A stretch of DNA of 63,921 bases, counting the filler, from Diploschistes diacapsis (taxonomy: Eukaryota), in NCBI GenBank assembly GCA_023645945.1. It is 17 parts of 17 records of this genome, joined end to end, with 100 filler letters (N's around TTAATTAATTAA, not from the genome) between each part and the next. Parts side by side here need not be neighbours in the genome. Positions count along the whole stretch, not along the records: positions 53,762 to 55,129 come from JALAIB010003231.1; 16 more parts are not named here. One strand, 5' to 3'. The stretch's first letter is position 1, and every line of letters begins with the position of its first letter. A program made the position numbers and the translations under genes. Below the pieces are notes generated by a model, which made no database searches, was not told the DNA's origin, and saw only the letters and a list, made by a program, of their open reading frames with translations. This document shows positions 4,474 to 59,528 of the stretch, in pieces.

Positions 4474-7400
4474 CTTCGCTGGGAAAAATAATGTGTGCCG
4501 AGGAAATGCGATTATCGTCGAATTAACATGGTTGCAATCTTCGCGTCTGAACGCCAAAGAAAAGCTTGTCTTCGCAAAGAAAGCAAAGCTTGCAAAGCGA
4601 CGAGCGATGGCAGGGTGAAGCGTGGAGTTTTAGACGTTAACAGCTGTTGCGTCGTTTGGGGATTTAATTCAGGATTCAGGAACGGCCGCCGCTGAAACCC
4701 CTGTCGGTTTTGGTCATTCCCGGCCATGCTAAAGCTGAGTCAAGCTAGACCAAACCGGTTCCCCCAAACAAGGCAAGTAGGTAGCGCTTAGACAGGGGGA
4801 AATCATGTTCACTAATAATGGTTTTCTTCACAATTACCATGGCTCCCAGTGATCAACTTCTATTATTGCATGAACCTTTTAGTTTGATATGGATACTACT
4901 GATGGCACAGGGTAATCTAGTTTTACGCTAACCCTGCTGTTCAAATCTCTTGCTTGATCTTATTTAGTCCACCCCTTATCAGCATTCCATGCTCAAAGAA
5001 TCTTCCGCTGTAGATCTATTACCGGTAGATACTTCTCCTTCGATTCGACGTGGTTATCTCCGCGGAAAGCCTCCTCTGTTTCTATCACATATAGCGGTGT
5101 TTACTTTGCAAAAACTCTGGGAGAACTTTGAGACTGTGTCCATCCTCATCTTTCCTATAGCCAACGACTTTGGTGCTTCCATTTAGCCCTGCTAGTCTCA
5201 ACGCGTCTGCATGGAAACCTTAATTGCGAGTCCACGAAAGCATTCCTCGGCACATCCACCATTAGAGCGCCTGTGGAGCTAAACCTGAAGCCGAAACTTG
5301 GACTTGAATAAACTTTCCCACTCTTCATGAGGCCGAGGAGCTTGATATAAGGCGAGTACGATGACATTGATAGGAGCCCTCTAGGGCCTTCAGATCTCTG
5401 CCCAAGACACAAACAGCCTGCAAGGTTCGTTCTTTCCCATCTTACGGAACAGGATAGTTGGAAATCTGCTCAGATACACAGATGAATTAAACTGTGTCGT
5501 TCTTAGTTCAGTGCTTGGGTGCTGAATCAAATAGATTTTGTGCTCGAGAGGAGCCAGGAACACGTGGACTGGTATAGTCGTGTGATCTAAAGTCTAGAGT
5601 GCCTCCAAAAAGAATGCATCTCTAGGTAAAAGGTTTGCACAAGCCATCTTGGAGTAGCAGTCGGAGTAGCGTGTCTCCAAGGTGGAAATCCCGCACAAGA
5701 TCGTCTCGGAAACAGTACTTATTGCGTTTCCACGAGAATGTTGGCTCGAGGGCAGTGATAGCATTTCTACCGTTCCAAATGGTCGCAGTACGATAGGCCA
5801 AGCGGCATTTCGACCCAAGGATAAGCCAGTTACTAACGTCCTCGGGGATCTGCGCGCTAGAGCTCACCAAGTCAATGTAGCAAATTTTTCTACGCAAAGG
5901 TAAGCCAGCTCGAATAGACATAACGTTAAGATGAAGTGTTAGTTTCAGATACATAGAACATGCCATGGCTGCAAAGCAGAGGCCAGTCAACTCCTGAGCG
6001 CGAACAGCATCCCAGTACTAGCGCTTCTAAGTAATATGAGAACACACATATGTAGCCATCTATGACGGGCTGAAGTTAAGAGAACCGATAATAACAGAAG
6101 ATGCCCGTAGTTAGCAGCTTGATTCCATTGGGAATCGATGGTACACATCTCCAGTATTTGGCAAAACAGGCTAACGGTTTGCGACAGGATCCTTGAACGA
6201 TGCTGCAGAATCGTACATTGGTGCATAAAGAGTAAATTGCCAGTTACTTAAGGTTTCGATCGTGATTGACTTTTCTTTCAAATGTAGGATAGAGTTAGTA
6301 CTCCCTAGGGCCCGAAGGGTCGGGTCAGCCATTTCATACAACGATTGGGAGACTGCGGAAGCGGATCAGACAACCTAACGCGTGTAACTCCCTGATATCC
6401 GAACCAACGCATGGTTTACAGAATGCTCGGGGGAAACATGAGTGTATGTCGTATGTGCTGCAAACTGTAACTGGTGTGGGAAGTCGATTGATCCTTGGGG
6501 TTTCCGGAAGGATGGCTGGATGTATGAAGAACCGTTCGCATTGCACATCAGATCTCAAATGCACTATGTACTAATCGAGATCTCCATGGGTTACCTATCC
6601 GCCCAACTATGGAGGGCCTATCGGTAGTTGTAGCCGTACTCCATACCTGGGTCCATAGACATGCATTGAAAAACAATAGCCAAAGTAATTTTTTTCTCTC
6701 GTATACTTGAGTATCAACGTAGCAGCAGGCAAAAGAAACCACAGGGCTGACAAGATAAGGGTGTGCCGCTCTTAGGATGCCTTTCACCACCGCGGATTTG
6801 GAGGGGAAGACGGTGATATTCTGCCCAAAGCGGGTACTATTAGCAGCGGCTTCACCCTCTAGTTTCGTCGCTATGAATCCCCAAAGAGCGGACACGCTAC
6901 GAGTAGTGGAATGCTTAATTCAACGACGTTGTGACACAAGCCTCGCTCCGGGGCGACTATCACACGCTATACTAGAGCAATTGACCTGTGATCTGGGGGG
7001 AGGTGCCTGACTAGGACCCAAAGGCACCAAGAACCACATGCGGAGAATTAGGGACAAGGTAATTCATTCGATGCACACTTGCCACGATTTTACTTTCGCA
7101 ATGGCCGAGGAGAACCTCTAGCGTCGATGGCCAAGCAGGAAAGAGGTCGATTTCCGATTTCCGTGTCTCTGCACTGAGCAGAAGGGACCCTTCGCACAAA
7201 GTAGACAATGCAAAATGCATCCCAGAAATCCACGGAGGACTCGGCGAGAATGAGGTGACGAGCACGGAGAAAGGGGGTACGATCGTAGAACTTGTTTGCG
7301 GTGTGCAGTCTGGGTCCCCACATGACCACCCATTTAATACATCCATGAAATGCACGGCGACATCATGAACGATTTGCTCCAGCCGAAGCGTCGACCGCTC

Positions 7401-7584
7401 TTTTGCATGTAGCAATACCCTTCCCCAGTTCTCTGTGGCCACAGACTCTGCAGCATCATACGGGTAGAGAGGAAACTTTTATGGGAAAACTCAAGCTCAC
7501 GGTGAAATACTTGCGCGCACATAAATGCTGGACTGAACTAGACCTATCCAATTGGAAGTTACTAAGCTTGGTGCGGTATTGAAG

Positions 7585-7768
7585 TTGGAATTGGAATTGG
7601 AATTGGAATTGGAATTGGAATTGGAATTGGAATTGGAATTGGAATTGGAATTGGAATTGGTATTGGTATTGGTATTGGTATTGGAATTGGTATTGGTATT
7701 GGTATTGGTACTGGTACTGGTACTGGTACTGGTTGGTACTGGTATTGGTATTGGTATTGGTATTGGTA
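7585..7768. repeat. Compound hexanucleotide microsatellite (TTGGAA)n/(TTGGTA)n/(CTGGTA)n
   Basis: Read directly: 12x TTGGAA, 4x TTGGTA, TTGGAA, 4x TTGGTA, 3x CTGGTA, CTGG, TTGGTA, CTGGTA, 4x TTGGTA. Confidence 0.97.
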
Positions 7769-10029
7769 ATTTATTCATGATTTACAGCCGGAGGTAAATT
7801 AACCACAAACAGGGATGAATTCGCCCCCTCTTGGCGCCCCGCTGGACCCCGGTATAATGTCAGCATGGAGTATTGCATCTTGTCGAGCTTCGAAAGCCCT
7901 TCCTTATTCGCCAATGCACAACTAAATTAAGAATTGCGAATAATAATATGGTAATGTTGATGATAACAGTTTCCGCGGTAATTTTGTGAACCGAGACAAC
8001 TGATCTTCTGTCTTCCACACATATAGGCAATCATAAAAGCACGCTGCAGGTCTCGAGCGTCGTCCCAATGATATCTTAAGCAAAGTGTTCTTGCCTGAGG
8101 CAGAGACAGTACGCAAAAAAGTCACGTAGATCACCATTGACCAGCGCTTCCCCCGACCAGTGGACACTGATGCATGGTCGACCCCAGTATAATCCTTCAG
8201 CATCGACGTGGTTGGTCTGGTCCGGTCTGGTCTGGGCGGAAAATAACACGGGCGTGTCTCTGCAACTTCCCCATTCGTAAGTCAACGTGACCTCCGCGCC
8301 AGCCACTCAGCAATTCGAGAGGCGCTGGGCACGCTCCACAATATTCATCTTGTACCCGAGCCCCGGCCCCTTGCTATCAAATCAGGCCTACGGAAATTCC
8401 AGGACTGGCATAAGGAAAGGGAGAAGGGCGTTCGATATTATTGTCGAAATGAAATGATAGCAACGGAGCTGCGCAGTTCGCCGAGGTATCGCGAGCAATA
8501 ATAATGGCGTGGGTGGAGAGAGGAAACCCGCCCACCCATCAAAAACCCTCTCGCCCACCGCCTTTTTGACCTTCAACCCGAACTAGCAGGTCGATTGGGA
8601 AGTGTAAAAGCGGTGACCGTATTTATGTTGATGAATATTGCCACTCTGTCCTCAACGACAATCCTGCTGCTGCCAGTGGTTCGATGGTATAGATCTATCC
8701 TCTCCCATAAGCAGCCTTTGCACAATAAGTATCCCGCTTCTGCCAGGGTCGCTCGCTTTATGCATTGTGACATTCGACATGCCACCTTATACCTGCACGT
8801 CTATAGAATAATGCTTTGTTGCGATTTTTGGCTTCATTTCCTGGTACAGTGTCATTTTCAGTGTCCTTGGCAGCGATTCGGCGCAGCCTGACAGGGTTGT
8901 TGTAGGTTCGATTGCAATATTTGTGACAGAAAGTGCAGATCAATCACCTCGGCCAGGTTACGTACGTACATCGTAGCCCTTTGACAGCCCCATTCTCGAG
9001 CCTCATCCGTGCTGTTGATTGTCAGTGCATTACCTCGTACATTAGAGCGTCTAAGATCCACGAAGCGGCTCAGGCATGGTGGGGGACTGGCAGACTGGCA
9101 GATTCGTCGCACTAGCCAAGGCTTCTAGCGAAGACAGCTCGCATGCTGCTCGCTTCTTTACTAGTATCTACTAGTAGTAGTAGACCAAGCATCCATCCCA
9201 CTACTGCGCTTCTTGAAGTTCAATTTCCCAACGGCACTCCCCAACGCCCAGGGGAAGGCCTTTCCTCCCTAAGGGCAAGATGGGCTAGTTTGTCGTTCAT
9301 CCTGGGATTTCTAGCCCCTTTTCTGAACTTCAACCTGTCTTCATATTATTGCCGGCATTGTCGTCGATCCCAGTTCTTTCTTTTGCGCGCGTCTTGGTAG
9401 CAGTAGCCCAGATCTCAAACGCACAAGCGTATGTAGTACAAGATCTTCCGGATGCCCTTAGTCTTGCCCCCAACTTCACTCTACTCAATTTGGATGCTAT
9501 GCTGAGTCGAATAGGCTTAGCCTCGGGCCTCGAATTGCACAATGATCTGTCGTGACGTAGGCTAGAGATCCCTTGGTTTCCGTCCTGCACGAACCGAGCA
9601 TGAAGCCAGTGGGTTTATAGCTCGTGATATCGAACTCACTCTTCAATTAGTGAACAGAACTTTCTTTGAAGGCTAAAGGCCTTGCTGTGCTCAGCTCTTA
9701 ATCCACCTTGGCTCGCACAAGCTCTGCACCGTAGGAAATGTCAAAAACGCTGAGTCCAAATAGCGCATAAGAAAGAAAGTACAACTGGTAGCTCGCCCCC
9801 ACTTACTTCTTGTGGGAACAGAAACAAGAAGCTGGGATTAACAGTTGGATGTAGTTAGTAATGTAGCGTTGGTGCGCAAGGCGGCAAGGCTTACGGGATC
9901 TAAAGGAGCGGAGGCCTTAGATGGTCAGCGGTTGGAGCGGAATAGTCGGACTATCCTAGTGAGCGGGGACAGGACGCTCCGCTTCGACCCGGACAGTAAC
10001 GGCCTACCTTATTCCCTGCCCCTGTTTGG

Positions 10030-23635: not shown

Positions 23636-23875
23636 TAGGCTGGCCGTTTCGTGCCACGGTCACTGACACGGACACTGCAGCAAAAATTTTTAAAACACGG
23701 ACACTGACACGGACACGATAGCTAAAATTTTAAAACACGGATACTAATACGGATACTGTACTGCAGTGAAAGCACGGACACGGATATTATAATTAAAAAT
23801 TTTAAAATACTGATATTGATACGGATACTGTATTTCCGTAAATTCATCGAAATACTGCGGTGAATCCACCGAAAC
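23636..23875 (+). mobile_element. hAT-like element left end with ACACGG subterminal repeats
   Basis: Starts TAGGCTGGCCGTTTCGTGCCACGG with many ACACGGA motifs. The same end occurs at 54216(+), 27247(-) and 28779(-), and a complementary right end ACGGCCCGCCTA ends at 57769. Confidence 0.65.
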
Positions 23876-25446: not shown

Positions 25447-25551
25447 TATAACTGCTCTACCTTCTTCTCCTGCTTGCACTCCTCTTCTAAACGAGACCAA
25501 ACCCACCTTGACTCTACTCGTGTATACCTTGTATAGATAGAGATCATAACA
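25447..25551 (+). mobile_element. Gypsy LTR 3' end inserted into gag of the same family
   Basis: Ends AGATAGAGATCATAACA, as do the copies ending at 29984 and 55350. Confidence 0.8.
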
Positions 25552-26426
25552 CGTAGCTATCTTTTTGGCTTCTCAAGTATACGTCGAGATGAAGTTTTAT
25601 CCATGTTAATACGCGGTCACGCATAAATCTTACGGCGAAGACGGTTCGTTTCTTTTAATCGTCTATAATATACGGGTTCCAATAGAAATATATTGAAAAT
25701 TAAAATATTTAATATTTTAGTTTCTTCCGATCTTTATAAAACGTTATTAATTTTATAGCTTTCATAATGGGTTCTTTATACGGTTTATTTTCGTTAAATT
25801 TATCGTTATTTCCGAGATTATCGCTTCTAGCTTCCGCTATGTCCGCCATCGGGATATCGATTTCATTTAATGGCGTTGTTATTCTAAATGCTCGAAATGG
25901 TACGGATCTAACCATCGATAACGATCGCCCGGTTATGCTATCTGAGACATTTATTCTTAAGGATGTTTAAGTATTATAATCTTTATCTTTATAAGATAGA
26001 CACGAGGTATTAATAAAGATAGATTTGATCTCGTATAAAAAAATAATATAAATAAAAAAAAAGATAGAATAATTATAAATCTTAAACTATTTTTAAAAAA
26101 AAAAGCTTTCTAATAATAGAAATAACGAATATAAATTGATCCCGAGCAATAACTAAAGATATTTATAAAAGTAAACATACCAGAACTTATAGAAATTATA
26201 GCGACGATTTTATATAATTAACTGTTCTTTAGTGAAGTAGATTAATAGATGAATAGAACTAACGTTCTCCCGTTTTATTTATAGAGAGTAAAATAGCTTC
26301 TAAGGCTTTTTACTCATTACGTGACCGGCGTTACCATGATTGGACTATATACAAGGAGTGGTTGGGTTAGGCCCGATCAGCTGTGAAGTGCCAAGTGGCT
26401 ACCACCTAGTTACTTGGATCGTAACA
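25552..26426 (-). mobile_element. Ty3/Gypsy 5' LTR (25972-26426, 455 bp) plus gag relic
   Basis: On the minus strand the LTR runs TGTTACGATCC…GATTATAATA (RIP form of GATCATAACA). It is followed by CTTAAAC and gag MADIAEARSDNLGNNDKFNENKPYKEPIMKAIKLITFYKDRKKLKY...FAVRFMRDRVLTWIK, a retrotransposon gag pattern. Confidence 0.82.
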
Positions 26427-26929: not shown

Positions 26930-27247
26930 ATTACGTTTATTTTTACGTTTTTATTTTTTTACCGCGGTGTTTTAATAGATTTACGGTAGTATTTCGGTAA
27001 ATTTATTATAATATAATATCCGTGATAATATCGTGTTTTAAAAATTTTGGCGGTAATATCCGTGGAAGTATCCGTGTTTTAAAATTTTTAATTATAATGT
27101 CCGTGTCCGTGCTTTTATTATAATGTAGTATCCGTGGAAGTATCCGTGTTTTAAAATTTTAGCGGTAGTGTCCGTGATAGTATCGTGTTTTAAAAATTTT
27201 CTCGGTAGTGTCCGTGGAAGTGTCCGTGGCACGAAACGGCCAGCCTA
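26930..27247 (-). mobile_element. hAT-like element left end (minus)
   Basis: CCGTG repeats ending CCGTGGCACGAAACGGCCAGCCTA. Confidence 0.65.
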
Positions 27248-28387
27248 ATTCAATACCGGATAAAAATTAAGCAAATTAATTAGGATTACGCGAATACGAA
27301 CACGAGAAAAAGAAAATCGAATAAGAATAAATAAACTAAATAAGATTATACGAATAAGAACGTTAGAAAAAAAGGATCGAATACGAGATTAAATACGAGT
27401 TTTAAGAAAGAACAGCAAAAAATAAATGAATAAAAGAACCAATATTATCGGAACGAAAGAACCAGGGAATAAGAAAGAGAAAAAAGAAGGGAAGAACAAC
27501 AAAAAAATAAGATGAATATTAAGAATAAAGAAAGAAAGTTTGGTGCATTATCGAAACCCTAGGCTTTACAGCAAAAAAAACAAAAGAAAATATAATATTA
27601 TGATTCTGAAAAAGAATTAAAAGAATATAAAAAAGAAACGGTGGAATAACGTAAAAAGACAAATAAGAAGTATCATTCTTCTTCTTTTTAACATCGTTTA
27701 TAAACCAACACGGAAAATTATTCACGAATTATCGCGTCTTTCTTTCTCTCGTAATGAACTTACAACTCCCTTCACGCACTAGTATTATCAAGGACCCCCA
27801 GGGGCCATTATTCGAACAATATAAAAGCGACATATCGTAATCCTCGACCTAAAATCCCATCAAAAACAAACAATTAACCGGATATTATGCCCTCGGAAAG
27901 AAACGAGCAATCAAAAACGTCTATTTAAAAAGAACCGCTACCACCCAATAGACCGCCTACGGATATAAAACCAGAATTGCCTCTAATATATACGACCCAG
28001 AATGTTTTAACACCGGCGACGAACATAAGTATTCCTTTTTATTAATATCCCGTTCCTAAGCCAGACATAACGGGAGCTCTTTTCTTCATTAATAAAAATA
28101 TATTCAAGTTCGTTACTTAATAGAAAAGATTCTATCGGAAATATCTTATAACGACAAAAAAGTTCTTTATCCGCCTACCTGATTACAGTAAAGAGTTTAT
28201 TAATGTATTAATTAAAACTTCTTTTGAATTTACTAAACGCGACTGGGCTGTTTTGAAAAAGACCTTATTTCGGAATTACGCTTACCTNNNNNNNNNNNNN
28301 NNNNNNNNNNNNNNNNNNNNNNNNNNNNNNNTTAATTAATTAANNNNNNNNNNNNNNNNNNNNNNNNNNNNNNNNNNNNNNNNNNNN

Positions 28388-28606: not shown

Positions 28607-28779
28607 TGTTTTATTACGTTTATTTTTTATATTTTTATTTTTTTATCGCGATATTTCGATAGATTCACGATAATATTTCGATAAATTTATTATAATATAA
28701 TGTTCGTAATAATATCGTGTTTTAAAAATTTTCTCGGTAGCGTCCGTAGAAGTGTCCGTGGCACGAAACGGCCAGCCTA
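28607..28779 (-). mobile_element. hAT-like element left end (minus, internally deleted)
   Basis: Ends GTGTCCGTGGCACGAAACGGCCAGCCTA and matches 26930-27247 with an internal deletion. Confidence 0.65.
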
Positions 28780-29757
28780 AGTAAGGACGTATTAAGGTGT
28801 CTTATATTTTTATCGATAAAATGATTATTGACGGGTTTATAAAATTATTGAATTACTCGATGCACGACGTTTTTATTAAGGGACTCGGTTTAGTCCAAAA
28901 GATATTCAGTTAAATTATATAGACATACCGGATGATTCCCCTTATGGGAAAGTGTTGAGTAGACAAGTAGAAGATATAGCTAAGAATTCGATTAAATTCT
29001 AAAAGGAGGTTTAGTTTAGCTGAACTTCGAAATTCAATTGAATTAAACTTCTTAGAATTCTGATTAGAATGAATCGGGAAATAATTTAGTCAGTAAGGCT
29101 TAGCGTATCCCATAAGGATAAAAGTCTGCAAAGTAGGATAACCTCCTAGATAGACCTTTAAACTTCAATACATCCATTACGTTACTAAATAGGTTATGAA
29201 CCCGAATTAACATCTGCTTTACTACGCTTAATCGTTTATTAAAATTACGTTTCTCGGCAATTATTACGATTACGAACGCGGGTACCGATTATATTACCTA
29301 ACGTAAGTTAAATCGAAAAGATCTAAAAGCCTAAGATCTAAATCATAAAACCCTAAGATAAACTGATTCAAAGATAGAAATTATATTATTTTAAAAGAAC
29401 GCGGGACCTTAATACGCTGACCTAAGGTAAACCTAAATAAGAAATAGTTGGATCCAGATATCATCTGTACAAACTAACGAAAAACAACCTTTTTTTCTTC
29501 CTCGCCAATATCGAAGTTCAGTTAAACCACGCTGAACCCCTCGATTACTTTTATTTCTATTATAGAAGATTACTTTCTATATTATTCATCAATTACTTAC
29601 TAACTACGAGTTATTCATTTAATAAATCTTCTTTATTTACGAAAAATAATAATAAGATAAACGACATTTTATCTAAAAAACGAATTACTTCCATCCTAAA
29701 AAAAGAAAATCAACAATAATAATTCGAACTCATACGTATATATCTTAAAAATAAAGA
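28780..29757 (+). mobile_element. Copia RNase H end + PPT + LTR (28953-29191) + PBS + leader + gag start
   Basis: GRIKVSYIFIDKMIIDGFIKLLNYSMHDVFIKGLGLVQK corresponds to the Copia RNase H motif MIADG.TK.L. It is followed by purine tract GGGAAAG, LTR TGTTGAG...CTAAATA, PBS GGTTATGAACCC at 29192, and gag from ~29657. Confidence 0.82.
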
Positions 29758-29857: not shown

Positions 29858-29984
29858 TTTTTAGAGATTAGAATAAACCTATTACCGATCTATTTTTTCT
29901 CCTTTTATACTTTTCTTCTACCAGAAACCAAACCCACCTTGATTAATACCTCGTGTCTACGTTGTAGAGATAGAGATCATAACA
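29858..29984 (+). mobile_element. Gypsy LTR 3' end
   Basis: Ends AGATAGAGATCATAACA. Confidence 0.8.
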
Positions 29985-54215: not shown

Positions 54216-54363
54216 TAGGCTGGCCGTTTCGTGCCACGGTCACTGACACGGACACTACAGCAAAAATTTTTAAAACACGGACACTGACACGGACACGACA
54301 GCTAAAATTTTAAAACACGGATATTAACACGGACACTATATTGCAGTAAAAGCACGGACACGG
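54216..54363 (+). mobile_element. hAT-like element left end, interrupted by a Gypsy LTR
   Basis: Near-identical to 23636-23782. Confidence 0.65.
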
Positions 54364-54833
54364 TGTTATGATCTCTATCTATATAAGGTATACACGAGTA
54401 GGATCAAGGTAGGTTTGGTCTCTGTTAGAAAAGGAATGTGGCAGAAGAAGAAGATAGAGCAGTTACAGGTCTTAGACTATCTCTAAAAAAAAAATTCTAA
54501 AATAATAAAAGTAACGAATATAAATTAATCCCGAATAATAACTCAAAATATCTATAAAAGTAAACACGCCCTCTTTCACGAAAATAAAATCGTACTTATA
54601 TATAATTAACTCGCTCGCCGTTTATTATAAATCTAATAAACGGTGCCTCTAAAGCTTACCGCTCACAAGAATAAGCGCGACCGTCGAGCGGTAACGATAG
54701 CCTATTCGCCGCTCACGAGAATGAACATAAATAATGAGCGCACTACGTGACCTTTAGTCCCGTAATTAACCTATATATAAAACTGGAACGTGCTAAGTCT
54801 GATATTTAGATCGTAATACTATCCCTTTCTTTC
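54364..54833 (-). mobile_element. Gypsy 3' LTR (54364-54818, 455 bp, variant B) with polypurine tract (54819-54833)
   Basis: On the minus strand GAAAGAAAGGGATAG immediately precedes TATTACGATC (RIP form of TGTTACGATC); the LTR ends GATCATAACA. Confidence 0.82.
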
Positions 54834-54912
54834 AACATTATCGGCCCGATGATTCGCCGAAGGGTCTAACATAAATATTAAATAAAAAAAATTTTTAAAT
54901 CGTGGAATAACG

Positions 54913-55129
54913 ATGTTTCTTCTAACTTCTTACAACCGATCCGTCGAACGAATCTAACTTTTTCGTTCTATCGCTCGTTATAAAATCCTTACTACTTCTT
55001 TCTATAAATATTGTTTTTTTAACGATAAATTCTATTTCATTATACTATTTAATTCTAAAGTTTTAAAATGTTCGAAATATATACGCCGTGATCATCCTTA
55101 TATGGAAATATTATGAGCTCGCTTAGAAC
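54913..55129 (+). pseudogene. RIP-mutated ORF with Zn(II)2Cys6-like spacing, antisense within the Gypsy 3' region
   Basis: From ATG 54913, codons 31/34/41/53/56/63 are TAT, TGT, TAT, TGT, TAT, TAT. Reverting TAT to TGT gives C-x2-C-x6-C-x11-C-x2-C-x6-C. The stops TAA and TGA revert to CAA and TGG. Confidence 0.6.
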
Positions 55130-55229: not shown

Positions 55230-55350
55230 GAGACAGGTTTAAGACCTATAACTGCTCTATCTTCTTTTCCTGCCACACTCCTCTTCTAACAGAGACCAAA
55301 TCCACCTTGATCTTACTCGTGTATACCTTGTATAGATAGAGATCATAACA
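55230..55350 (+). mobile_element. Gypsy LTR 3' end
   Basis: Ends TAGATAGAGATCATAACA; matches 25447-25551. Confidence 0.8.
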
Positions 55351-56696: not shown

Positions 56697-57700
56697 TTCT
56701 AAAGTCGAGCTTCTTTAATTAACTATCTTGATAACTCGAATCGCATAATTTCTATCGTTAGTTATCTCGAAGGCTAATCGAAGCTATTTTTTAAATTTTA
56801 TGAAGTTTTTAAATATTTCGTAACTATTTTTTTGGCTTTTTAAATATACGTCGAGATAAGGTTTTATTTATGTCAGTACGCGGTCACGTATAAATCCTAC
56901 GGCGAAGATTATTCGTTTCTTTTATTCGTCTGTGATGTGCGCGTTCTAGTAGAAGTATATTAAAAATTGGAATATCTAGTATTCTAATTTCTTTCGGTTT
57001 TTATAAAACGTTATTAATTTTATAACTTTTATAATAAATTCTTTATACGATTTATCTTCGTTAAATTTATCGTTATTTCCAGGATCGTCGCCTTTAGCTT
57101 CCGCAGTATCCGTTATCAGGACGTCGGTTTCTCTTAATAACGTTACCGCCCTAAATGTTCGAAATAATACGGATTTAATTATCGATAGCGATCGCCCGGT
57201 TATACTATTAATAATACTCATTCTTGAGTATATTTAAGTGTTATGATTTCTATCTATATAAGATATACACGAGTAGGATTAAGGTAGGTTTAGTCTTTAT
57301 TAAAAGAGGAATATAGCAGGAAAAAAAGATAGAGCAGTTATAGATCTTAGACTGTCTTTAGAAAGAAAGCTTTTTAATAATAGAGATAACGAATATAGAT
57401 TGGTCCCGAGCAATAGCTAAGGATATTTATAAAAATAAATATACCGAACAAAGGCATGTTTAAGAAAAAAACTATATACCTAAATTTCTTATAAAGCACC
57501 AATGCCAGCTCCCTGTGCTTTACCAAAGCGAAAGAAGCGCCGGTGATAGTTCTTATAAAACAGAAGGAGCGTCGCTTATTGCTCCCACCGAGCGCATAGA
57601 ACGGCGCCGCTCGTTCCAACAACTCACGTGACCCGAACGTCAGTGAGTGTTTCTTAGTGAGTGGCTGGGACGTGACAGGCCAGCAGCCTGGATCGTAACA
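56697..57700 (-). mobile_element. Gypsy 5' LTR (57239-57700, variant C) plus gag relic
   Basis: 56822-57238 is homologous to 25552-25971 (TDTAEAKGDDPGNNDKFNEDKSYKE...FYKNRKKLEY). The LTR has TGTTACGATCC / AATCATAACA termini. Confidence 0.82.
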
Positions 57701-59072: not shown

Positions 59073-59528
59073 TGTTACGATCCAAGTACCAGACTTGGCA
59101 CGTCCCAGCTTTGTTATATATAGGCCAGTCACGGGACGGGAGGTCACGTGATGTGCTTATTACTCGCGCTTATTCTCGTAAGCGGCGAGCAGGTTTTCGC
59201 CATCGCTCGATAATCGCGTTTATTCTCGTAAGCGGCGAGCTTCGAAGGTACCGCTCGCTGAATTTATAATAAACGGCGAGCGAGTGTTATGATCTCTATC
59301 TATACAAGATATACACGAGTAGGATCAAGATGGGTTTAATCTCTATTAAAAAAAAAGTGTGATAGAAAAAGAAGATAAAACAATCACAGGTCTTAGACTA
59401 TCTCTAATAAAAAGGCTCTAAAATGATAAAAATAACGAATATAAATTGATCCCGAACAATAATTTAAGATATCTATAAAAATAAACACGCCCTAGATTCA
59501 TAAAGGCTATAACGACGTTCTTATATAA
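59073..59528. mobile_element. Gypsy LTR variant B (+, 59073-59284) interrupted by a second Gypsy LTR (-, 59285-59528)
   Basis: TGTTACGATCCAAGTACCAG... matches the reverse complement of 54600-54818. TGTTATGATCTCTATC at 59285 matches 54364. Confidence 0.8.

What the first reader, a model, noticed from the sequence alone, without database searches (positions are those of the whole stretch)
54819..55129. Gypsy retrotransposon carrying an antisense Zn(II)2Cys6-like gene next to its PPT/3' LTR
Seen: a minus-strand LTR (54364-54818) with its PPT (54819-54833). About 95 bp from the LTR, a plus-strand ATG (54913) opens a frame whose six key codons are TAT-x2-TGT-x6-TAT-x11-TGT-x2-TAT-x6-TAT (55003-55101). 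Established: RIP turns TGT into TAT, and C-x2-C-x6-C-x5-12-C-x2-C-x6-8-C is the Gal4-type binuclear zinc cluster; canonical Gypsy elements encode only gag/pol(/env). Inference: the ancestral element carried an accessory antisense DNA-binding protein, possibly transcribed from the 3' LTR, that could regulate or target the element. This is the best candidate here for an undescribed system.
Basis: partly seen in the sequence, partly recalled or inferred. Interest (0 to 1): 0.72.

Follow-up and report, generated by a model that had tools for sequence, protein, structure and literature searches.

The report
Dead antisense zinc-cluster gene in retrotransposon
This stretch is a mutation-killed copy of a real extra gene that many fungal jumping genes carry backwards near their end; intact relatives encode a small zinc-binding, self-pairing protein that may regulate the element, although it lacks the usual DNA-reading residues of fungal zinc-cluster regulators.

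Summary
The motif, LTR and PPT are at the stated coordinates, but the frame has two stops and the contig ends at 55129. All 29 other genomic copies fetched keep the LTR-PPT-ORF order. They show TGY at five of the six positions, never at Cys1 (0 of 29). Intact relatives have all six Cys in register, and 50 of 51 metagenome loci place the gene antisense, tail to tail with a chromovirus pol end. It is under purifying selection (median dN/dS 0.23) and travels with pol. The 160-180-aa protein has a basic helix, a Cys6 module, a long coiled coil and an acidic tail. Fold searches rank Gal4-type clusters first, but weakly. It is not a canonical Gal4-type reader: Pfam Zn_clus stays below cut-off, the basic recognition loop is absent (K/R at loop position 4: 0 of 83, host clusters 12 of 12), and the predicted dimer is antiparallel. 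An antisense gene at this position is already published (brtn of Botrytis Boty); homology could not be tested. Best reading: an element-encoded, dimeric, trans-acting regulator, function unproven. A conserved hairpin beside the PPT also turned up; it is not specific to elements with this gene.

The parts
54364..54818 (-). 3' LTR (455 bp) of a minus-strand Ty3/Gypsy chromovirus
   Evidence: Repeat with fixed ends in the genome; outer end TGTTA in 28 of 28 copies that reach it; continuous with the ORF in sister copies
54819..54833 (-). Polypurine tract
   Evidence: 14 of 15 purines on the minus strand; same place in sister copies and intact relatives
54837..54853 (.). Short inverted repeat (7-bp arms, 3-nt centre), centre 25 nt from the LTR edge; conserved cis element next to the PPT
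   Evidence: Core intact in 27 of 30 genomic copies; same position in relatives, 23 of 29 beyond shuffles at p<=0.05; arms covary
54870..54876 (+). TATA-like box 43 nt before the ATG; probable core promoter of the antisense gene (inferred)
   Evidence: Position matches TATA-like boxes at -39 to -57 in 18 of 20 relatives (permissive pattern, no control)
54913..55129 (+). First 72 codons of the antisense accessory gene; broken by stops at 54955 and 55114 and cut by the contig end
   Evidence: 32% identity over 74 residues to intact relative P0018, start codon in register
55003..55101 (+). RIP-damaged Cys6 module (x2-x6-x11-x2-x6 spacing)
   Evidence: all six Cys present in 83 of 110 relatives

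Best explanation
The stretch is a dead, RIP-mutated copy of a real third gene carried by a lineage of ascomycete chromoviruses (Ty3/Gypsy with a chromodomain integrase). The gene lies antisense between the pol end and the PPT (shown). It is probably transcribed from its own core promoter just inside the PPT as a separate RNA of about 0.7-0.8 kb that runs into the chromodomain region (inferred; weak RNA hint). The 160-180-aa product has a basic N-terminal helix, a six-Cys module that most likely binds two zinc ions in a Gal4-like fold (model only), a roughly 55-residue helix that forms a homodimer (model only), and an acidic, hydrophobic tail. The most likely job is a trans-acting nuclear regulator of its own element. 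The dimer would be held on element DNA or chromatin through a non-canonical surface (the N-terminal helix and the second half of the cluster), and the acidic tail would recruit host transcription machinery to drive or de-silence LTR transcription (inferred, untested). The gene identity is about 0.95 certain, the zinc-cluster-like fold about 0.8, the regulator mechanism about 0.5.
For: Linkage: 29 of 29 other copies keep LTR end, PPT and ORF start together. Six long copies show a convergent pol C-terminus. 21 of 24 chromovirus pol ends in this genome with at least 450 nt downstream carry a homologue. RIP: 1013 of 1024 differences between copies are transitions. Intact relatives: 25 hits, best E 1.5e-18; 189 hits with a wider profile; 50 of 51 loci antisense to a pol end; SH3_Tf2-1 in 20 of 20 and Chromo in 17 of 20 adjoining ORFs scanned. 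Selection: median dN/dS 0.23 over 24 unsaturated pairs of 253, and 0.04-0.06 in 7 of the 8 closest pairs; the three minus-strand frames are interrupted in 20, 22 and 23 of 23 loci. Co-inheritance with pol: Mantel rho 0.40, p 0.005, same deep split in both trees, 17 loci. Fold: Zn2Cys6 proteins fill Foldseek ranks 1-13 and 1-7, and ranks 1-2 of 48,161 chains (Ppr1 Z 3.8, rmsd 3.4, 57 aligned; Hap1 Z 3.6, rmsd 3.6, 56 aligned). Homodimer model: score 0.63 against best control 0.03, runs agree in 100% of contacts, pLDDT at least 85; the mark was reached by 21 of 30 solved pairs and 0 of 23 single chains (microbes), 17 of 29 and 0 of 30 (eukaryotes). Tail: 17% D/E, 1% K/R. RNA-library contigs cover the gene of one intact relative in 4 of 4 runs laid.
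Against: The canonical DNA-reading features are missing: mean K/R in the C2-C3 loop 0.58 against 4.25 in host clusters; K/R at loop position 4 in 0 of 83 against 12 of 12; Pro before C4 in 1 of 83 against 12 of 12. Pfam Zn_clus is below cut-off (best 14.6 bits against 21; 5 of 29 members, best E 0.2). No fold match is significant on its own (best Foldseek E 0.24; Z under 4, a level the tool calls uninformative). The dimer model is antiparallel (pairs 76-97, 65-104, 86-86), unlike the parallel Gal4-type coil (recalled), and a coiled-coil pass may come from likeness to solved coils. The palindrome beside the promoter also occurs in one element that lacks the gene, so it is no evidence of a self-binding site. 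The RNA contigs are unstranded and may include DNA. Cys1 is never seen as TGY in this genome. Zinc binding, DNA binding, nuclear location and any effect on transcription are untested.
Confidence: 0.5

Rival explanations
1. The gene is real, but the protein is a structural or adaptor factor of the replication cycle. An antiparallel rod with a zinc module at each end would bridge RNA, Gag, integrase or chromatin (packaging, nuclear import or integration targeting) rather than regulate transcription.
For: Canonical recognition residues are absent; antiparallel dimer model; the gene is inherited with pol. Retroviral accessory proteins with such roles are the analogy drawn in PMC7264820.
Against: The acidic, hydrophobic tail and basic N-terminal helix fit a transcription factor. 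At least one chromovirus in this genome lacks the gene, so it is not a core replication part.
Confidence: 0.22
2. The protein is a counter-defence factor. It binds a host silencing or chromatin protein (RNAi, methylation, heterochromatin) and so protects the element, without sequence-specific DNA binding.
For: The element lives under heavy RIP; the protein is small, dimeric and as divergent as the pol C-terminus (mean identity 0.58 for both); no canonical DNA-reading loop.
Against: No partner was identified. Close pairs show strong purifying selection with no sign of rapid change.
Confidence: 0.14
3. The protein is a canonical Gal4-type factor that reads CGG half-sites with its first cluster helix.
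For: Six-Cys spacing; fold rankings; UniRef and Atlas automatic names 'Zn(2)-C6 fungal-type domain-containing protein'.
Against: Basic loop and Pro absent; C3-C4 spacer 8-15 against 5-6 in host clusters; Pfam below cut-off.
Confidence: 0.08
4. The antisense RNA, not the protein, is what matters (double-stranded RNA control of copy number), and the ORF is incidental.
For: RNA contigs extend 220-330 nt past the stop into pol. PMC7264820 discusses this role for antisense transcripts.
Against: dN/dS of 0.04-0.06 in close pairs and invariant Cys, Trp and Met residues show selection on the protein. An RNA role could still coexist.
Confidence: 0.05
5. Chance pattern in AT-rich DNA, or an unrelated neighbour of the LTR.
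For: The frame has stops, and Cys1 is not seen as TGY in this genome.
Against: Shuffles 0 of 1000; linkage 29 of 29; intact homologues at the same place in 50 of 51 loci.
Confidence: 0.01

Closest known systems
brtn, the antisense gene of Boty-like Gypsy elements of Botrytis cinerea (Zhao et al. 2011, Virology 417:248; paper not held; known here from its title and from passages of PMC7264820, PMC4227169, PMC8365987, PMC5987419)
   Same: Fungal Gypsy element with a chromodomain (PMC4227169); extra antisense gene between pol and the 3' LTR (PMC7264820). An 802-nt Monilinia transcript matches both truncated Pol and BRTN (PMC5987419), the same layout as the 660-820-nt RNA contigs here.
   Different: No BRTN sequence or name came up in any search, so homology is untested; I put it at about 0.6. 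None of the passages read gives brtn a zinc cluster, a coiled coil or a function. Named homologues found here are from Dothideomycetes and one lichen fungus.
Plant antisense aORF-3R genes (maize Grande gene23, rice RIRE2, Silene Retand, PvRetro13; PMC7264820, passages)
   Same: Antisense gene between pol and the 3' LTR, kept in most copies; Grande gene23 has its own upstream promoter and a nuclear product.
   Different: Plant hosts and, for Retand, a non-chromovirus lineage (search listing of PMC11963269); the review reports no clear protein similarities. No sequence link was tested.
Gal4/Ppr1/Hap1/Leu3/Put3 Zn(II)2Cys6 transcription factors (Pfam PF00172)
   Same: Six-Cys spacing, predicted fold, cluster followed by a dimerising coil, acidic tail.
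   Different: No basic C2-C3 loop, no Pro before C4, longer C3-C4 spacer, extra N-terminal helix, much longer coil predicted antiparallel, total length 160-180 aa; below the Pfam cut-off.
HTLV antisense gene (HBZ; name and function recalled; the antisense promoter in the 3' LTR is stated in PMC7264820)
   Same: Retroelement-encoded antisense gene at the 3' end with a dimerising helix and a regulatory role (analogy).
   Different: bZIP protein of an animal retrovirus; no homology implied; promoter inside the LTR, whereas here the TATA-like box lies inside the PPT.
DUF3716 (PF12511)
   Same: Weak hits over the Cys module in 2 of 25 relatives (E 0.0024 and 0.068).
   Different: Both below the curated cut-off (18.2 and 13.5 bits against 22); a lead only.

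Membership tests
Ty3/Gypsy chromovirus | LTR with TG...CA ends and an adjacent PPT | tested here: met
   one end intact in 28 of 28 copies; the other end intact in 1 of 30 and changed by a RIP-type transition in 29; PPT adjacent
Ty3/Gypsy chromovirus | pol order PR-RT-RH-IN with a C-terminal chromodomain | tested here: met
   Full order in intact relatives; integrase-SH3-chromodomain end in six sister copies of this family. Not visible in the window itself, where the contig ends
Antisense aORF-3R of LTR retrotransposons | ORF between pol and the 3' LTR, antisense, present in most copies | tested here: met
Antisense aORF-3R of LTR retrotransposons | Separate antisense transcript | tested here: inconclusive
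   Unstranded RNA-library contigs cover the gene in 4 of 4 runs; two begin at 5401/5402 and two end at 6103 of L052
brtn family (Boty) | Sequence homology to BRTN | not testable with these tools
   Paper not held; no record named BRTN returned
Zn(II)2Cys6 binuclear cluster (Gal4 type) | C-x2-C-x6-C-x5-16-C-x2-C-x6-8-C | tested here: met
   83 of 110 relatives; 41 of 51 loci; window copy in register, with four positions reading Tyr
Zn(II)2Cys6 binuclear cluster (Gal4 type) | Pfam PF00172 above cut-off | tested here: not met
   Best 14.6 bits against 21; 5 of 29 weak; 0 of 7 broken copies
Zn(II)2Cys6 binuclear cluster (Gal4 type) | Basic C2-C3 recognition loop and Pro before C4 | tested here: not met
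   0 of 83 and 1 of 83, against 12 of 12 and 12 of 12 in host clusters
Zn(II)2Cys6 binuclear cluster (Gal4 type) | Binuclear cluster fold | tested here: inconclusive
   Top ranks in three searches, none significant; models are of intact relatives
Zn(II)2Cys6 binuclear cluster (Gal4 type) | Two zinc ions bound; sequence-specific DNA binding | not testable with these tools
   Needs bench work

The most novel reading that the evidence does not exclude
A widespread lineage of ascomycete chromoviruses encodes its own trans-regulator, analogous to retroviral accessory proteins. It is built from a captured fungal zinc-cluster fold that has lost the canonical CGG-reading loop, uses a different surface, and dimerises antiparallel so that the two clusters can bridge distant sites on the element. 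That would be a transposon-borne transcription factor of a new architecture, now filed in databases as host Zn(2)-C6 or hypothetical genes.
Probability: 0.3. Interest if true: 0.75.

Novelty: new variant of a known kind. Interest (0 to 1): 0.5.

Why it matters
Antisense extra genes of LTR retrotransposons have been described for decades without a function (PMC7264820). Here one large family gets a concrete anatomy (Cys6 module, dimerising coil, acidic tail), evidence of selection, and many intact natural copies, so the question can be tested directly. If it regulates or de-silences its element, fungal Gypsy elements are closer to complex retroviruses than assumed. In practice, these genes are annotated as host 'Zn(2)-C6' or hypothetical proteins and could inflate transcription-factor counts in repeat-rich fungal genomes. 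The score is held down because brtn is a published precedent, the function is untested, and the copy here is dead.

Tried and rejected
Pfam on 7 broken copies: no family. Word-indexed homologue search with 6 broken copies: none of 769 candidates. Viral contigs: no relative of the gene or of a pol end. PDB sequence search with two profiles: nothing meaningful, no zinc cluster listed. VIA second look on the full-length model: top rows are generic coils (Z 5-6), zinc clusters only Z about 2. No intact copy among 22 genomic matches to P0018; all have stops. The idea that the palindrome by the PPT is the protein's own binding site was set aside: the arms vary while staying complementary, and an element without the gene has it too. 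The strand on which it folds is undecided (4 G:T against 6 C:A mismatches). In the RNA runs the LTR and gag parts were little covered in three of four runs, but missing cover and contig depth cannot rank regions. A minus-strand 'shadow' frame also shows low pN/pS (0.45) but is interrupted in 22 of 23 loci. Literature searches listed no paper that describes a zinc-cluster antisense gene in fungal Gypsy elements or the PPT-side hairpin. Only titles and abstract starts were seen for most listings, and subscription papers, including Zhao 2011, are outside the library. PMC3248453 has no 'zinc', 'antisense' or 'GAL4'; PMC10799480 gave nothing relevant. Look-ups of earlier findings by sequence and by place returned nothing.

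Full report
Setting. The window is a chain of separate contigs joined by N44-TTAATTAATTAA-N44 spacers. The finding lies at the end of a 1368-bp, 30% GC contig (53762-55129) with a RIP-type dinucleotide signature, which is G000:C2482. Sequence beyond 55129 is unrelated, and no gag or pol match was found in the window.

Observation. The LTR (54364-54818), the purine tract (54819-54833, minus strand), the ATG at 54913 and the six codons are as described. The frame has stops at codons 15 and 68, shared by 23 of 29 and 16 of 20 other copies. A Cys-or-Tyr version of the pattern occurred in 0 of 1000 shuffles of the contig and 3 of 200 shuffles of all 15 short contigs.

Copies in this genome. The DNA search scored 40 of 114 candidates and 30 loci were fetched, one of them the window's own. 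All 29 others carry LTR end, PPT and ORF start together: 27 in one alignment from the outer LTR edge, one starting at a contig end inside the LTR, one with an insertion in the LTR. Of 1024 differences from the window copy, 1013 are transitions; 3 of 29 copies have an indel. TGY was seen at Cys2 in 8 of 28, Cys3 15 of 26, Cys4 9 of 26, Cys5 2 of 25, Cys6 4 of 23, and Cys1 0 of 29. Two more copies and two copies of other subfamilies also read Tyr at Cys1. Cys1 rests on relatives; it is either saturated by RIP or was already lost in the founders. Longer copies extend the frame to about 160 codons and meet a minus-strand integrase-SH3-chromodomain end. Of the 30 best pol-end loci (130 matches), 24 have at least 450 nt downstream and 21 of these carry a homologue at E<1e-3; one was marginal, one ran into unrelated sequence, and one (L114) lacks the gene. 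All 22 genomic matches to an intact relative contain stops.

Intact relatives. A profile of 17 broken copies read with X found 25 proteins, best P0018 (E 1.5e-18), which has all six Cys in register with the window motif and the same start. A wider profile found 189 proteins. Named ones are hypothetical proteins of Sporormia, Elsinoe, Macroventuria, Boeremia, Flavoplaca, Pyrenophora, Stagonosporopsis and Exserohilum, the last named 'Zn(2)-C6 fungal-type domain-containing protein' by UniRef. Of 51 metagenome loci, 50 have a pol C-terminus convergent on the opposite strand and one ends at the gene. Pfam confirms Gag, protease, RT, RNase H, integrase, SH3 and chromodomain (28 of 30 ORFs scanned had retroelement domains). 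41 of 51 loci keep the full motif. I saw no copy outside an element, but these loci came from one peptide pattern and at most 80 stretches.

Selection and inheritance. Over the first 125 codons of 23 intact loci, 24 of 253 pairs were unsaturated; median dN/dS was 0.23, and 0.04-0.06 in 7 of the 8 closest pairs. Other frames gave pN/pS of 0.99-1.46, except the minus-strand frame that shares the wobble position (0.45), which has stops in 22 of 23 loci. For the 17 loci with enough pol sequence, distances correlate (Mantel rho 0.40, p 0.005) and both trees recover the same deep split (support 0.94 and 0.95), with disagreements inside the groups. The pairs are not independent.

Protein. The model of P0018 (pLDDT 74.9) shows a helix at 6-23, the Cys module and a helix at 70-125. 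Foldseek ranks 1-13 are all Zn2Cys6 proteins, at E 0.48 or worse. A domain-only model of another relative (pLDDT 77.6) gave ranks 1-7 Zn2Cys6, best E 0.24. Against 48,161 chains it gave Ppr1 (Z 3.8, rmsd 3.4, 57 aligned) and Hap1 (Z 3.6, rmsd 3.6, 56 aligned) ahead of unrelated rows at 2.7. The consistency is suggestive, but no score is significant. Against membership: Pfam Zn_clus is under cut-off, and comparison with the 12 best of 66 host clusters shows mean K/R in the C2-C3 loop of 0.58 against 4.25, K/R at loop position 4 in 0 of 83 against 12 of 12, Pro before C4 in 1 of 83 against 12 of 12, and a spacer of 8-15 against 5-6. That this loop reads CGG in Gal4 is recalled. Basic residues lie instead in the C5-C6 loop (Arg at position 2 in 78 of 83) and in the N-terminal helix (mean 4.3 K/R in 25 residues); the tail is 17% D/E and 1% K/R. 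A homodimer model of residues 1-125 of one relative with zinc scored 0.63 against a best control of 0.03, with 100% contact agreement and pLDDT at least 85. The mark was reached by 21 of 30 solved pairs and 0 of 23 single chains in microbes, 17 of 29 and 0 of 30 in eukaryotes, but by only 1 of 7 eukaryotic pairs with no older relative, so a pass may reflect likeness to solved coils. The contacts are antiparallel.

Promoter and RNA. A TATA-like box lies 39-57 nt before the ATG in 18 of the 20 loci printed, of 29 given (permissive pattern written after viewing the sequences, no control). The window has one at -43. This places the core promoter inside the internal segment, though LTR enhancers may contribute. 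For intact relative L052 (gene at 5386-5886), 24 runs were listed, 15 on record as RNA, and 4 were laid. Contigs cover the gene in all four: 5164-5905, 5442-6103, 5402-6220 and 5401-6103; in one run this was the only contig laid on the element. They are unstranded, may include DNA and were found with this region, so this is a weak hint. It matches an 802-nt Monilinia transcript similar to both truncated Pol and BRTN (PMC5987419, passages).

Hairpin. Beside the PPT, relatives have an inverted repeat whose centre lies 24-26 nt from the LTR edge in most loci; 23 of 29 exceed shuffles at p<=0.05. In the 16 loci with a 4-nt centre, 90% of cells pair, 6 of 7 pairs change on both sides, and 0 of 500 shuffles reach the covariation score, while slid controls pair 24-49%. 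The 6 loci with a 3-nt centre were left out of that count, and the rows were anchored on the centre. The window has it at 54837-54853. L114, which lacks the gene, has a 6-bp version 24 nt from its LTR. It is therefore more likely a general signal for plus-strand priming or RNA handling (inference, one control) than the protein's site.

What is known. Boty elements of Botrytis are chromodomain Gypsy elements with an antisense gene, brtn (PMC4227169, passages; PMC8365987, passages and a supplement search). PMC7264820 (passages) places it with plant antisense genes between pol and the 3' LTR, function unknown. Zhao 2011 was not held and Additional file 1 of PMC8365987 could not be read; either may state brtn's domains. 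Nine searches listed nothing on a zinc-cluster reading. This scan has 19 earlier findings in at least 8 genomes holding the same search words; the 8 shown describe this gene. They are unchecked and not independent support.

Verdict. A real, conserved, selected antisense accessory gene of ascomycete chromoviruses, dead in this copy. It works plausibly like a small dimeric zinc-cluster regulator but is not a canonical Gal4-family member. It is a new variant of a known kind, possibly the brtn family itself. Interest 0.5.

Noticed in passing
window 54837-54853; L034-L077; L114:2279-2295: Covarying inverted repeat at a fixed 24-26 nt from the LTR edge, beside the PPT, in chromoviruses with and (one case) without the antisense gene; not found in one literature search.
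   Followed up: partly
whole window: The window is 17 separate contigs joined by N44-TTAATTAATTAA-N44 spacers; two of about 20.9 kb with host-like GC, fifteen of about 1.37 kb, most with a RIP signature. Features across spacers are not neighbours.
   Followed up: yes
window 54216-54363, 23636-23783, 27014-27248, 28698-28780: Repeat with short sub-terminal units directly outside the LTR, 95% identical to 23636-23783 and present inverted near 27057-27200; looks like the end of a DNA transposon into which the LTR element inserted.
   Followed up: no
window 55237-55350, 57239-57439, 59075-59493, 25449-25551, 25974-26177, 29858-29984: Further pieces of the same LTR family; at 59075-59493 two pieces lie back to back in opposite orientation.
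   Followed up: no
L088, L090: Other subfamilies share the outer 200 bp of the LTR (88% identity) and the PPT-hairpin segment but not the middle of the LTR, and carry diverged versions of the antisense gene; suggests exchange of LTR modules.
   Followed up: partly
L114 (G000:C466): Little-mutated chromovirus end (55% GC, one stop in the matched pol part) with only about 270 nt between pol and PPT and no antisense gene.
   Followed up: partly
L034:2065-2646, L045:2721-3260, L050:1505-2047 and others: Open minus-strand (sense) frames of 150-270 codons overlap the antisense gene in several intact elements. Such shadow frames could be mistaken for an env-like third ORF, as recalled for CfT-1 and skippy; untested (one search found nothing useful).
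   Followed up: no
P0271, P0272, P0275: Multi-copy Exserohilum proteins of this family are annotated as ordinary genes named Zn(2)-C6 domain proteins.
   Followed up: no
window 7557-7782: Long hexamer microsatellite (GGAATT, GGTATT, GGTACT units) in the first large contig.
   Followed up: no
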